Part shown: positions 27,501-33,500 of the stretch, piece by piece
Layout of the letters: each line of letters opens with the position of its first letter
Numbering within the stretch: position 1 is the stretch's first letter
DNA from: Eledone cirrhosa
Lineage: Eukaryota
DNA length: 64,000 nucleotides
Assembly: GCA_964016885.1 (NCBI GenBank)
Contig: OZ024765.1
Coordinates: forward strand, 7,378,001 to 7,442,000
Direction of reading: 5' to 3'
Translations under genes and position numbers: made by a program
The notes under the pieces: model-generated
What the model was told of the DNA's origin: nothing
What the model saw: the letters and a program-made list of their open reading frames with translations, nothing else
Databases searched by the model: none

Positions 27501-30500
27501 CAGTTGCTTAATGCTACAGAAACTGGGGATAAGCCTGGTGAGCCTTTGAGCTCGAGACAGACTTTAACACTGTGATGGACTGGCGTCATGTCCAGGGGAA
27601 TCATGTACTCTCAGTTGCTTAATGCTACAGAAACTGGGGATAAGCCTGGTGAGCCTTTGAGCTCGAGACAGACTTTAACACTGTGATGGACTGGCATCAT
27701 GTCCAGGGGAATCATGTACTCTCAGTTGCTTAAAACCATGGAAACTGAGATAAGCAATGGTCTGATGAGCTTCCAGGCTTGAAACAGACTTTAGACACAC
27801 AGTTGAATGTCTAGAGTGACATCCCAACAGCCTGGCGGAACGAGTTATGGGGAGATGGGCCCAGTTACAGGAACTTGGTTATAAATATGGTAATGAAAAG
27901 CCTTTCTATCCATATTCTTGTCTTCCCCTCAGGTCTCCTGTCCACGATGGCACCATTAGAGCTATGTAGAGAGGTCCTTAAGAAAACCATTGAATCCTGC
28001 TATAAGCTGCTCTGCTCTGAAATTGTTCCGCTAGACAAACCAGTGTCTCCAACCTTTAACATGAATGCAGTTCTTTCATCTTCCTACACTCACAAAATAG
28101 CAAAGTAAGTTATTGTGTATATATATATATATATATATATATATATATATATGTATAAATATATCTCATAAGAAACGGAGAATCAGTGGTGCGACGAATA
28201 AGATTTATTAGACATATTACAATCGTTTTTCTGGTGACCGGCTCGAGGCACAATCGATGCAATGATCAAACCTGACTCTGAAATCGCAAAATCCTCGGAT
28301 ATGTCTCGATTTTACGAAGCAGAGTTTCCATATATATATATATATATATATAAACAATTTTAAATGTGTTGATAATACAACCATATGAAAGCAAAGAAAA
28401 TTTAAAGTTCAATATGATTTTATACTATAGTTTGCAACAAAATAGGTTAAAAAACAGTTCTGAGATTAATTGAAGAGGTAAAATATATATATTGACTGTT
28501 CTAAAGCACCCACTCCAGTCATATAAATATATATATATATATATATATATATATATATAGTAATACTAATAAATATGTGAAGACTAAAATCCAAAGAGGG
28601 CTCGATAAGGATAAATATATACAAAATATATAAGAACCCTTGAGCAAATATTTATTAAAATAACAGATTAAAGTTTAAGCAAAGAATTGCTGCTTTCACC
28701 CTTAACGGGATCTTCTGAAACTAAAAGAATCAATCTGTGAACACAGAAGTAAATATTTCGAAAAATGTTGCAACTGAAGGAAAACAGGAAGACAATACTT
28801 TGGTCCGCAAAGATGTTCCTTGGCAATATATATATATATATATATACCATAAGGATAATTGTGAAGGTCTGCTGCAGATGTTTAAAATTCCTATATTCAT
28901 AAAGCTGTAATAAATATTTCAGTGGCAATCATGAAGGAACAGACTTCTGCAGTATAAACTCTATATTGGTCCGTTCCCTTGCCTTTAGCTTGTATTGCAT
29001 TTGAAATATAACTTTATTGCATAAGATGCTGCCTGATGATATCACATCACGTAGCCATGATCACCATTGAAATATGTATTACAGCTTTATGTAAAAGTAG
29101 TTTTAAACATCTACATCTGACCTTTCCAATTATCCTTATTGTAAATATACTTTGTCACTGACTAACAAATTATATTTGGAAGAAAATACATGACGTTGAG
29201 TGCTTAAATCTAATTACATCATTCACTGTTTGGTGTGTTGCATATGCAATCCTTATTAGTCAACATGTTTACTGTATGTGTATATATATATATATGTATA
29301 TATATATATATATATATATATATATATATATATATATATATATATATATATTATATGTATATATATATATATATATATATATATTTATAAAGTATTTCCG
29401 TAGAAAAGGTAAAGGAAAGAAGAGAGTTCTATGTATAGAACAGAGCTATATAATTATGTAATAAAAACACAATACAATTATTCCATTTACCCAAGGTTTC
29501 ACGAAGGCAGGCGACCACAACAGAGGCATCCAAAGTTGTTCATCAGAAAGGAAAATTTAATATCTATCTAGGGCGGGTAAAATTCCCGAGATCCATGGAC
29601 GTGTTCTCTCCAGCGGTCTCTGTCCCTCATTATCGCTGCCATGTCCTGCGTCTCTAACAGACCAGTGTCTGTCCTTAGGGCATCAACATACGTTAACCTT
29701 GGTCTTCCCCTTCCAGTGTGTCCATGTAGGGGCTCCCAAAGGAGCACTGAGTGCAATATCAACTCTGGATGTCGGTGAGCATGTCCAGCTAACCTCAGTC
29801 TCCTCTGTGTCACTTTTGAGCTGACTTTTGGGAGGTTCCCATACAGCTCTGAGTTTTTCATCCTCAGTGTATACTGATTAATGTTCAGAGCCATCCTCAG
29901 CATTCTCGTCATTACACCTGATGGGATGACAAAGTTCTTTGAGATACTGGCTGTAGTGCTCCAGGGGGATACATTGGCTCCCTACCTTTTTATCATCGTA
30001 GTGGACTATTGTATGCGCCTTGCACTGGAGAAACACCAGGACTCTGGTTTTACTGTAGCACCGGCTCAGAGCAGGAGAGTTAGGGCGAAAAAGGCATCAG
30101 ATGCTGAATTTGCCGACGACATAGTTTTGGTAACAAATACAGTGAAGGAGGCAGAGGATTTGATGCGGGAGGTTGAGACTGTGTCGATGAGTGTGGGGCT
30201 GAGAATGAATGAGACTAAAACAAAATATCTGGTAGAGAATGTTGAGAAGCCAGAGGGGATTACTAATGTAGGCGGGAAGCCGCTAGAATTGGTTGAGGGC
30301 TTCCTGTATTTGGGAGCAAAGATTGGGAATACGGAAGATGATGTGGTTTAGAGGAAGAGCAAAGCCTGGGCGGCATGCCACAGCTTGAGATCGGTGTGGA
30401 AGTCGGACCCTCATAAAGACCTGAAAATCCGCCTCTTCATTGCTGTAGTGGAGTCTGTGCTGCTGTACGGGTCTGAGACTTGGACACTGACCAAGAAACT

Positions 30501-33500
30501 CACTCAGATGGTGGATGGGTGCTACACGAGAATTTAATATCTATATATTAAATATGTATTAAATTTTCAGGAACATGATGAATTGAGACAGACCAACAAG
30601 GAAACAAAACTGTGCTAATTTAGAAGTTTTTATTTCTGCTATGGAATGCAACAAAACCTAGCAGCAGGTAACAGTTGGGAATGGGTGTGATCATGATGGT
30701 GGTGGTGGTGGAGATGATGATGAATGATGACTGTTATGTTGATGATGTTGATAATGCTGCTGCTACTGCTGGTATCTTCTTGTAGGTGTATCACTAGATT
30801 CCTTCAGAACAACCCTCGATTGGTGTCCACTTGTGACCAAGCTTCTAAGGTTAACTTTCTGCCCTACACTGACCGATCCGCCATCTTCGGTGACGATGAC
30901 TCGGATGAAAATATCAACTTGAACGTCCATCTGGAATTTCTCTACAAAGGTACGGAGGAGGGGGGGTCAACATGGCTGTGATGGGAATCACATGGGTTTT
31001 GGGAGGTGTTGATAAGGGTGGGGTGGGCACCACCACCACCACTATCATCACCACCATCATTACCACCACCACTATCACTGCACCACCATCACTATCACCA
31101 CTACCATCATCAACCCATCATTACCACCACCACCACCACCATAATCACTACCACTACCATCATCAATACTACCACCACCACCTCCATCACTACCATCACC
31201 ACCACCACAATCAACCTTCCACTACCACCACCACCACCAACCTTCCACTACCACCATCACTACCACCACCACCATCACTACCACCACCACCATCACTACC
31301 ACCACCACCACCATCACTACCACCATCACCACTACCATCACCACGACTACCTCCACCACTACTATCACCACCACCACTACCTCCATAATCACCACACCAT
31401 CAACCACCACCATCATTATTAATATTTCTGCCCCTCTCCCCAGATTTACCCAACAAGGAGGAAGACAGCTTGGGTGTGGCAACTCCGGAAACTTGTCAAA
31501 GCCGAGAAGGTTTTCTCCAAATTACCTGTAAAGGAATCCTCGGACAGTACTCTCCTATCGGAGAGGAGAGCATAGAAGATAAAGTTTTACTGGAGTGAGT
31601 AGCGCTTTTATAGCATGTTTGTGTTGTAGTTGTAGTTGTTGTTACTTTCCCTGTAACATAACGTGTCATTTCAGTGGACTTGTGGTTGTGTTGGTGACAT
31701 GACAAAAAGTACCCACTCCACCCCTTTACACTTTAGCATTTAAACCGGCCGTATCCGGTCAGAATTCTCACGCTTCTTTCTGTTCAAACCAGCCGTAACC
31801 AGCTGCTCTTACGGATGTTAAGGTATTGTTCTCAAAATAAATAATATCAAAATCTCATAGACTGGATATTATGTGAGATAATTATGTGAGGTAAAGCCTT
31901 TACTGTGAAAATATAATTGTAAATATAGAGTAATGTAAATGGTAAAGGGTTAGGTGGTCATGTTGATGACATGACAAAAAGTACTCAGTCCGCCCTGTAA
32001 TGTGGTCGTGATGGTGACACGTTAAAAAGTGCCCGGTGCACCCTGTAGAGTGGTCGTGTTGGTGACTTGATAAAAAGTACCCAGTCTAGCCTGTAAAGTG
32101 GTCATGTTGGTGATATGACAAAAAGCACCCACTCTACTTGTAAAGTGGTTGTGTTAAAAAGTGCCCGGTGCACCCTGTAGAGTGGTCGTGTTGGTGACTT
32201 GATAAAAAGTACCCAGTCTAGCCTGTAAAGTGGTCATGTTGGTGATATGACAAAAAGCACCCACTCTACTTGTAAAGTGGTTGTGTTAAAAAGAGCCCGG
32301 TGCACCCTGTAGAGTGGTCGTGTTGGTGACTTGATAAAAAGTACCCAGTCTAGCCTGTAAAGTGGTCATGTTGGTGATATGACAAAAAGCACCCACTCTA
32401 CTTGTAAAGTGGTTGTGCTAAAAAGTGCCCGGTGCACCCTGTAGAGTGGTTGTGTTAGTGTCATGATAAAAAGTATCCAGTCTGTCCTGAAAAGTTGATG
32501 ACACGACAAAAAAACACAGGCCTAATGAGCCTCCAGGCTTCATACAGACTTTAACACTTAGATGGACTAGCATCTTATCCAGGGGGACATCTTGTATGCT
32601 TAGTCACTTAACACTAAAGAAACTGGGCATGAGACTTCGGGTTTGAGATAGACTTTAACACTTGATGGACTGGCGTCCTGTCCAGGGGGAAGTCTTGTAC
32701 TCTCAGTTGCTTAACATCGGGGAAAAACACTGGCCTGATGAGCCTTTGGTCTTAGAAAAGACTTTAACTTAACATTGTTTTTTTTCTACAGCTCTGATTT
32801 TCTAAAGACAGAGGCACTTCTTGAGGAGCTAATGGATGATGGTATAGCTGAGATACGAAAGTATGTCCGCAATTGCAGATGGCTGGAAGACATTTACCAG
32901 TTCTGTGAAACCATGGAGCAAGTATTTCTTGTAAAATTGAAAACTATATCATCATTTCTCATTCAGGTAGTTTCTCTGACATTTTAAATTATACATTTCT
33001 TGTGCTGGTGCCATGATAAAATGCACTACGCTCTGTAAAGTGTTAGTGCTGGTTCCACATTAAAATGCACCCTGTACACTCTGTAAAGTGGTAGTGCTGG
33101 TGCCTTGATGAAATGCACTGAGTATGGTCTATAAAGTGGTAGTGCCCGTCTCATGATAAAATACACCCAGTACACTCTGTAAAGTGGTAAGGCTCATGTC
33201 ATGATAAAATACACCCAGTACACTCTGTAAAGTGGTAGTGCTGGTGCCATGATAAAATACACCCAGTCCACTCTGTAAAGTGGTAGTGCCCGTCTCATGA
33301 TAAAATACACCCAGTACACTCTGTAAAGTGGTAGTGCTGGTGTCATGATAAAATACACCCAGTACACTCTGTAAAGTGGTAGTGCTGGTGTCATGATAAA
33401 ATACACCCAGTACACTCTGTAAAGTGGTAGTGCTGGTGCCACAAAGAAATGCACCCAGTGCACTCTGTAAAGTGGTAGTGCTTGTGTCATCATAAAATAC

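What the first reader, a model, noticed from the sequence alone, without database searches (positions are those of the whole stretch)
29554..30544. RTE-clade LINE insertion with twin-priming-type 5' inversion
Seen: a 14-bp TSD (aatttaatatctat) brackets a minus-strand 3' piece and a plus-strand upstream RT piece. The inverted piece ends beside the TSD at ...GCYTR (tacacgagaat), where the non-inverted piece begins (acgagaatgctg). There is about 8 nt of overlap, 'aat' microhomology to the target, and 2-3 nt of microhomology at the internal junction near 29908. Established: this geometry is the twin-priming signature best known from mammalian L1. Inference: an invertebrate RTE with a (GATA)n tail also uses second-strand internal priming, which to my knowledge is little documented.
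Basis: partly seen in the sequence, partly recalled or inferred. Interest (0 to 1): 0.7.

Follow-up and report, generated by a model that had tools for sequence, protein, structure and literature searches.

The report
Front-flipped RTE retrotransposon, a family-wide habit
A dead jumping-gene copy in a likely octopus genome sits between two copies of a 14-base target word with its front part backwards; about a fifth of the sampled copies of its family show the same flip, likely because both cut DNA ends primed copying of one RNA as in human L1, while a second family in the same genome showed none.

Summary
A 14-bp TSD (29554-67, 30531-44) brackets a minus-strand 3' piece and a plus-strand upstream RT piece of a 3.3-kb single-ORF, RTE-type LINE. 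The pieces overlap by 8 nt, with 3 nt of microhomology to the target and 2 nt at the inner junction. Both pieces are equally diverged and carry linked subfamily alleles, so this is one insertion.

The flip is a family habit: 32 long inversions were found, including a second in this window, and 24 of 115 copies sampled by their 3' end are inverted (21%; samples 2/29 to 13/28). Outer-junction microhomology exceeds chance, and the pieces never overlap by more than 31 nt. A second LINE family in the same genome shows 0 of 47 (p=1.6e-4).

Twin priming is the likely cause. The rate resembles human L1 (18-31%). No empty allele was recovered and no RT tree was built. The mechanism is known; I found no printed report for RTE elements or invertebrates, but three key papers were not held. 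This scan noted RTE 5' inversions before (20 notes, at least 8 genomes).

The parts
29554..29567 (+). Target-site duplication, copy at the element's 3' end (14 bp). Read on the minus strand it begins ATAGATA, which matches the family's (ATAG)n tail (3' microhomology)
29568..29909 (-). Non-inverted 3' piece (element 2968-3309): C-terminus of the ORF ending at the stop codon, with no 3' UTR
   Evidence: 96% identical to L065
29908..29909 (.). Inner junction: 2-nt microhomology shared by the two head-to-head pieces
29908..30533 (+). Inverted piece (element 2350-2975): RT domain C-terminal half, with a premature TAG at 30349-30351
   Evidence: (RVT_1 E=8e-11)
30531..30533 (+). Outer junction: 3-nt microhomology (AAT) between target end and internal element sequence; inferred second priming site
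30531..30544 (+). Target-site duplication, copy at the element's 5' side (14 bp)
29400..29563 (+). Left arm of an older palindromic host repeat into whose centre the LINE landed; AATTTAATAT is native to that repeat in 10 of 19 paralogues
4925..5651 (-). Second 5'-inverted copy of the same family: 11-bp TSD (4925-4935, 5641-5651); 3' piece 5343-4944 (element 2910-3309); inverted piece 5342-5642 (element 2465-2765); 144-nt gap; microhomology 2 nt at both junctions

Best explanation
This is one dead insertion of a young single-ORF, likely RTE-clade LINE whose front part points backwards between 14-bp target duplications, most likely because both nicked target ends primed reverse transcription on the same RNA (twin priming). 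Shown: the geometry, TSD, microhomologies, equal age and same subfamily of the two pieces, and recurrence across the family. Inferred steps: (1) the first nick freed a 3' end that paired about 7 nt with the (AUAG)n tail, and cDNA ran 342 nt to element position 2968; (2) a second nick 14 nt away freed a 3' end that paired 3 nt with AAU at 2973-2975 and primed a second cDNA of 626 nt to position 2350; (3) the two cDNAs were joined through 2 nt of microhomology and filled in. The habit appears to belong to this element more than to the host.
For: Geometry and junctions. Rare differences are 0.6% vs 1.5% in the two pieces (Fisher p=0.35), and the divergence of the two pieces correlates across 16 inverted copies (Spearman 0.78, p=3e-4). 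The inverted piece carries 2805A/2858A/2910C and the 3' piece 3043C/3163G; these alleles are linked in intact copies (p down to 7e-9). There are 32 long inversions, all head-to-head. In the 31 with both ends visible the pieces overlap by at most 31 nt; 18 lie within 35 nt and 13 have larger gaps. Outer microhomology sums to 30 vs 7.3 expected in 11 non-microsatellite TSDs (0 of 50,000 simulations), and to 17 vs 5.7 in 9 TSDs of the later sample (P=0.0013). TSDs of 10 bp or more occur in 7 of 9 inverted vs 6 of 40 non-inverted copies with non-microsatellite flanks (p=5e-4), as reported for L1 inversions (PMC4245944, passages). Three inverted pieces run to the element's first base (L008, L070, L072). 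Frequency is 24 of 115 vs 0 of 47 in family B.
Against: No empty allele was recovered, so the single pre-insertion target is not shown directly. Three nt of microhomology at this locus alone is not significant (P=0.07). 7 of 31 inverted copies have no TSD of 8 bp or more at the outer junction, and 13 sit in microsatellite where TSD length is ambiguous. 12 of 32 inner junctions hold 1-17 extra nucleotides rather than microhomology. The samples are best-hit lists, not random draws, and rates range from 2/29 to 13/28. The highest rate is in the most diverged sample, which later rearrangement would also predict. One microhomology (L102, scored 6) includes a mismatch to the reference and may be 4.
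Confidence: 0.87

Rival explanations
1. Insertion-time repair: a single first-strand cDNA, or cDNA from a second RNA molecule, had its front part flipped and rejoined by host microhomology-mediated end joining, without internal priming on the same RNA.
For: It gives the same age, subfamily and TSD. Extra nucleotides at 12 of 32 inner junctions point to host repair. Sequence alone cannot show which molecule was copied.
Against: The microhomology excess is between the target end and antisense element sequence, as priming predicts. A second RNA would allow long overlaps, and none exceeds 31 nt in 31 copies. Family B in the same host shows 0 of 47.
Confidence: 0.07
2. An ordinary 5'-truncated copy was inverted later by a DNA rearrangement.
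For: It gives the same order of pieces and equal divergence. Inversions are most frequent in the most diverged sample (13 of 28) and in copies with C at 3306 (13 of 31 vs 11 of 83, p=0.002).
Against: The outer break would have to fall exactly on the TSD edge again and again (7 of 9). In this copy 8 nt are duplicated and no flank DNA lies at the inner junction. Family B, whose copies are about 94-97% alike, has none.
Confidence: 0.04
3. Two independent insertions lie head to head, or the junction is an assembly error.
For: The family is very abundant (1300-3002 candidates) and favours AT-rich sites, so neighbours occur.
Against: One TSD encloses both pieces, and the inverted piece has no 3' end or tail. 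Divergence and alleles match. The inverted piece ends at or before the start of the 3' piece in all 31 copies.
Confidence: 0.02

Closest known systems
5'-inverted (twin-primed) human L1 insertions. Model of Ostertag and Kazazian 2001 (not held), seen through PMC2912911 (passages and section 8) and PMC12016303 (passages)
   Same: Inverted upstream piece joined head to head to a 3' piece; TSD of 10-20 bp; microhomology at the outer and inner junctions; short overlaps or gaps (L1 overlap median 12 bp; here 1-31 nt). Rate 18-22% (PMC12016303) or 31% (PMC2912911) vs 21% here.
   Different: The element has one ORF (no ORF1), no C-terminal cysteine motif and no poly(A). It primes from an (AUAG)n tail into AT-rich or (TA)n targets, and the host is an invertebrate, likely an octopus.
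De novo LINE inserts in HeLa and DT40 cells (PMC4245944, passages)
   Same: Inversions go with long TSDs there and here; the paper says inversion depends on the LINE species.
   Different: There, inversions were seen only for human L1 in human cells plus one zebrafish Nimb-2_DR insert, and none for ZfL2-1; no RTE was tested. Here a non-L1 element inverts often in the germ line.
RTE-clade LINEs: RTE-1 of C. elegans and SR2/SR3 of Schistosoma (PMC1291365, passages); octopus RTE-2_OV (PMC9115989, passages)
   Same: About 3.3 kb, one ORF of about 1000 aa with APE endonuclease and RT, very short 3' UTR, tetramer or pentamer tail.
   Different: RTE-2_OV has a 1109-aa ORF, a zinc finger and UTRs of about 600 nt, so it is probably another family. 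No 5' inversions are mentioned in the passages seen.

Membership tests
RTE-clade LINE | Single ORF of about 1000 aa with APE endonuclease and RT, no ORF1, about 3.3 kb | tested here: met
   L065: 3309 nt, ATG at 214, 1031 aa, Exo_endo_phos_2 and RVT_1; compared with PMC1291365
RTE-clade LINE | Very short 3' UTR ending in AT-rich tri-, tetra- or pentamer repeats | tested here: met
   The stop codon is followed directly by (ATAG)n or (AATAG)n
RTE-clade LINE | TSD peak near 10-12 bp | tested here: met
   Non-microsatellite TSDs of inverted copies are 8-14 bp, median 11; peak quoted in PMC4245944
RTE-clade LINE | RT phylogeny inside the RTE clade | not tested
   No named RTE reference was among the 120 listed RT hits. 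Named endonuclease hits are 'craniofacial development protein 2-like'. A bovine Bcnt protein holding an RTE-1 endonuclease is seen as a reference title; that it equals CFDP2 is recalled.
L1 clade | Two ORFs, C-terminal CCHC motif, poly(A) tail | tested here: not met
   One ORF; no CCHC-like motif in the last 250 aa; no poly(A); only a distant match to L1 ORF2p (E=3e-28)
Twin-primed 5'-inverted insertion | Inverted upstream piece and non-inverted 3' piece inside one TSD | tested here: met
Twin-primed 5'-inverted insertion | Microhomology between target end and internal priming site above chance | tested here: met
   3 nt here (P=0.07 alone); family sum 30 vs 7.3 in 11 copies
Twin-primed 5'-inverted insertion | Small overlap or gap between the pieces, with microhomology at the inner junction | tested here: met
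   8-nt overlap and 2 nt here; family: microhomology 18, blunt 2, extra bases 12 of 32
Twin-primed 5'-inverted insertion | Empty allele with a single target copy | tested here: inconclusive
   Not seen in 8 laid runs; host-repeat paralogues confirm that the first 10 TSD bases are target sequence (10 of 19)
Twin-primed 5'-inverted insertion | Two cDNAs primed on one RNA at insertion | not testable with these tools
   Needs a retrotransposition or in vitro assay

The most novel reading that the evidence does not exclude
Frequent twin priming is not a mammalian L1 peculiarity. It is a property of the element's own protein and needs neither ORF1p nor poly(A) nor mammalian host factors. This invertebrate RTE family inverts at L1-like rates (21%, about 40% in one subfamily) while a neighbouring LINE family in the same germ line does not, so natural family and subfamily differences could map what times second-strand cleavage and priming.
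Probability: 0.5. Interest if true: 0.6.

Novelty: new variant of a known kind. Interest (0 to 1): 0.42.

Why it matters
How and when LINEs cut and prime the second strand is still poorly understood, and 5' inversion is its clearest genomic footprint. Cell-culture work tied inversions to human L1 in human cells. A single-ORF, non-poly(A) element that inverts one copy in five, beside a family in the same genome that does not, points to the element's endonuclease and RT as the determinant and offers a minimal one-protein system to test this. In practice, repeat annotators will count such copies as two insertions or as genomic inversions.

Tried and rejected
Empty allele and junction support: 8 coded runs were laid as contigs. 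No listed row bridged the empty site or the inner junction, the tables were cut, and the second laying did not cover the junction, so this says nothing either way.

L076/L060 was first taken as inverted; it is a full-length copy with an internal deletion and was dropped. An apparent inversion in family B (L201) was a separate short repeat sharing the family's 3' end. L149's opposite-strand piece (87% alike, from inside the 3' piece, about 55 nt away) was not counted.

The idea that family B lacks inversions because its TSDs are shorter was not supported: TSDs of 10 bp or more were 6 of 40 vs 2 of 22, p=0.7.

Family C (Tx1-like by recalled motif; window 25.6-26.5 kb) showed 0 of 29 inversions, but only its last 1.4 kb served as reference, so it is weak and was not used in the main contrast.

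The subfamily effect (42% vs 13%) is confounded with sampling: within it is 9 of 16 vs 4 of 11. The age proxy is biased by query choice.

A genome search with window:4948-5090 returned nothing. The RT homologue search gave no named RTE, so no tree was built.

Full report
Observation. The 14-mer AATTTAATATCTAT stands at 29554-29567 and 30531-30544; chance at a fixed register is about 4e-8. Between the copies lie two pieces of one retroelement. The minus-strand piece reads as a LINE C-terminus ending at a stop codon, and the plus-strand piece reads as RT (Pfam RVT_1). I used a natural full-length genomic copy, L065, as ruler: 3309 nt, ATG at 214, one open frame of 1031 aa with endonuclease and RT. 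The minus piece is element 2968-3309 and the plus piece 2350-2975. They overlap by 8 nt, share 2 nt at the inner junction, and the inverted piece shares 3 nt with the target. The copy has no tail of its own: the TSD begins ATAGATA in element sense and matches the family's (ATAG)n tail. It is dead, with a premature stop at 30349.

Host and family. The genome is 3.0 Gb. Named endonuclease hits include Octopus bimaculoides and O. vulgaris proteins at 72-81% identity over short parts, so the host is likely an octopus (inference). The family is young and abundant: 1300-3002 first-look candidates and copies 96-98% alike. Its anatomy fits the RTE clade as described in PMC1291365 (passages). It lacks L1's second ORF, poly(A) and CCHC motif. 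No RT tree was built because no named RTE was among the listed hits.

One insertion, not two. Rare differences from the family majority are 2 of 332 and 9 of 616 in the two pieces (p=0.35). Across 16 inverted copies with both pieces of 150 nt or more, the two divergences correlate (Spearman 0.78). Alleles in the two pieces are linked in intact copies (2910C with 3163G: 14/4 vs 3/50, p=7e-9). The target is the centre of an older palindromic repeat. Ten of 19 paralogues show AATTTAATAT at the same place, and several continue with ATATTAAAT as the right flank does. The right TSD copy is therefore duplicated target DNA, not element. The true empty allele was not recovered.

A family habit. I found 32 long 5' inversions, one of them a second copy in this window at 4925-5651. 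For a rate I used four best-hit lists taken with 3'-end queries. I dropped the four query loci and one near-duplicate of a query (L244). The counts are 5 of 29, 4 of 29, 2 of 29 and 13 of 28, together 24 of 115 (21%, 95% CI 14-29%). One locus (L252) has its 5' end out of view and is counted as not inverted. Five more have short inverted pieces of 9-22 exact nt (L035, L084, L095, L111, L262). The chance rate is 1% for 11 nt or more and 3% for 9 nt, so L084 is weak; with all five the rate is 29 of 115. These are not random samples, and the spread between them is large.

Junction signature. In 31 inversions with both ends visible the inverted piece never overlaps the 3' piece by more than 31 nt; 18 lie within 35 nt and 13 leave longer gaps. 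Outer microhomology sums to 30 against 7.3 expected in 11 non-microsatellite TSDs, and to 17 against 5.7 in the later sample (9 TSDs, P=0.0013). Inner junctions show microhomology in 18, blunt joins in 2 and extra bases in 12 of 32. Seven of 31 have no TSD of 8 bp or more, and 13 sit in microsatellites. Under one rule, TSDs of 10 bp or more occur in 7 of 9 inverted and 6 of 40 non-inverted copies. Three inverted pieces reach the element's first base, as expected if a second cDNA ran off the RNA's 5' end.

Element or host. A second LINE family (window 653-1108, (ATG)n tail, RT 32% identical) gave 0 inversions in 47 resolved copies of 57. Ten were unresolved, and the 2.4-kb reference lacks the family's 5' part; p=1.6e-4 against 24 of 115. 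A third family gave 0 of 29 on a short reference. Within the family, copies with C at 3306, like this one, are inverted in 13 of 31 and those with T in 11 of 83, but this is confounded with sampling.

Mechanism. Twin priming accounts for all of this: tail-paired first priming, a second nick 14 nt away, internal priming through 3 nt, and joining through 2 nt. These steps are inferred. Later DNA inversion fails to explain breaks that sit on the TSD edge and their absence in the second family. Insertion-time repair cannot be excluded by sequence.

Literature. Human L1 rates are 18.4% and 21.9% (PMC12016303, passages) and 30.9% (PMC2912911, passages and section 8). PMC4245944 (passages) saw inversions only with L1 in human cells plus one Nimb-2_DR insert, tied them to 10-20-bp TSDs, and quotes an RTE TSD peak of 10-12 bp. 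Passages of PMC6007223, PMC5389967, PMC4476161, PMC13174262, PMC9115989, PMC13282606 and PMC4613681 report no RTE 5' inversion. Searches: twin priming + RTE + inversion (11 papers, 9 listed), + non-LTR retrotransposon + invertebrate (2), twin priming alone (106, 40 listed), and (listings only). None showed an RTE or invertebrate case. Ostertag and Kazazian 2001, Ichiyanagi and Okada 2008, and a DOI recalled as Kojima and Okada 2009 were not held and may bear on novelty. No supplements were read.

Verdict. The feature is real and the mechanism is a known one, met here in another clade and host at an L1-like rate, with a same-genome negative control. The scan holds 20 earlier notes of RTE-type inversions in at least 8 genomes; these are unchecked and are not counted as support. 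Interest 0.42.

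Noticed in passing
window 37849-39269: A third copy of this LINE family whose 3' part has expanded into an 84-bp tandem array (13.8 units, 98% alike; element 3074-3137 plus about 20 nt): a minisatellite born inside a LINE. L118 shows a similar array.
   Followed up: partly
L145, L146, L153, L154: Family B copies carry internal 80-bp tandem arrays at the same element position in several unlinked loci.
   Followed up: no
L033 5' junction: The 5' flank holds a 10-nt reverse complement of the 3' flank (CTAGAGGTAT vs ATACCTCTAG), which suggests templated extra bases at the junction.
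   Followed up: no
L065 ORF vs P0121, P0001: The endonuclease is 72% identical to a sea-urchin (Diadema) protein and the RT half 81% identical to an unnamed ENA protein; possible horizontal transfer.
   Followed up: no
window 29400-29563 and loci L274-L292: An abundant palindromic repeat (1586 candidates) with arms of about 115 nt and a variable AT-rich centre; in this window the right arm is mostly lost.
   Followed up: partly
window 48706-52251: ORFs that look like gag, protease, RT and integrase of an LTR retrotransposon (Ty3/gypsy-like by recalled motifs; not tested).
   Followed up: no
window 28839-29149: 54-nt inverted repeats, 83% complementary and 203 nt apart; MITE-like.
   Followed up: no
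window 12681-24222: An 11.5-kb array of a 49-bp unit (236 copies, 95% alike), related to 48-bp arrays elsewhere in the window.
   Followed up: no
many loci: Both LINE families insert mostly into (TA)n or AT-rich tracts, and non-inverted copies often lack a clean TSD at the 5' junction (27 of 40 under 7 bp).
   Followed up: partly
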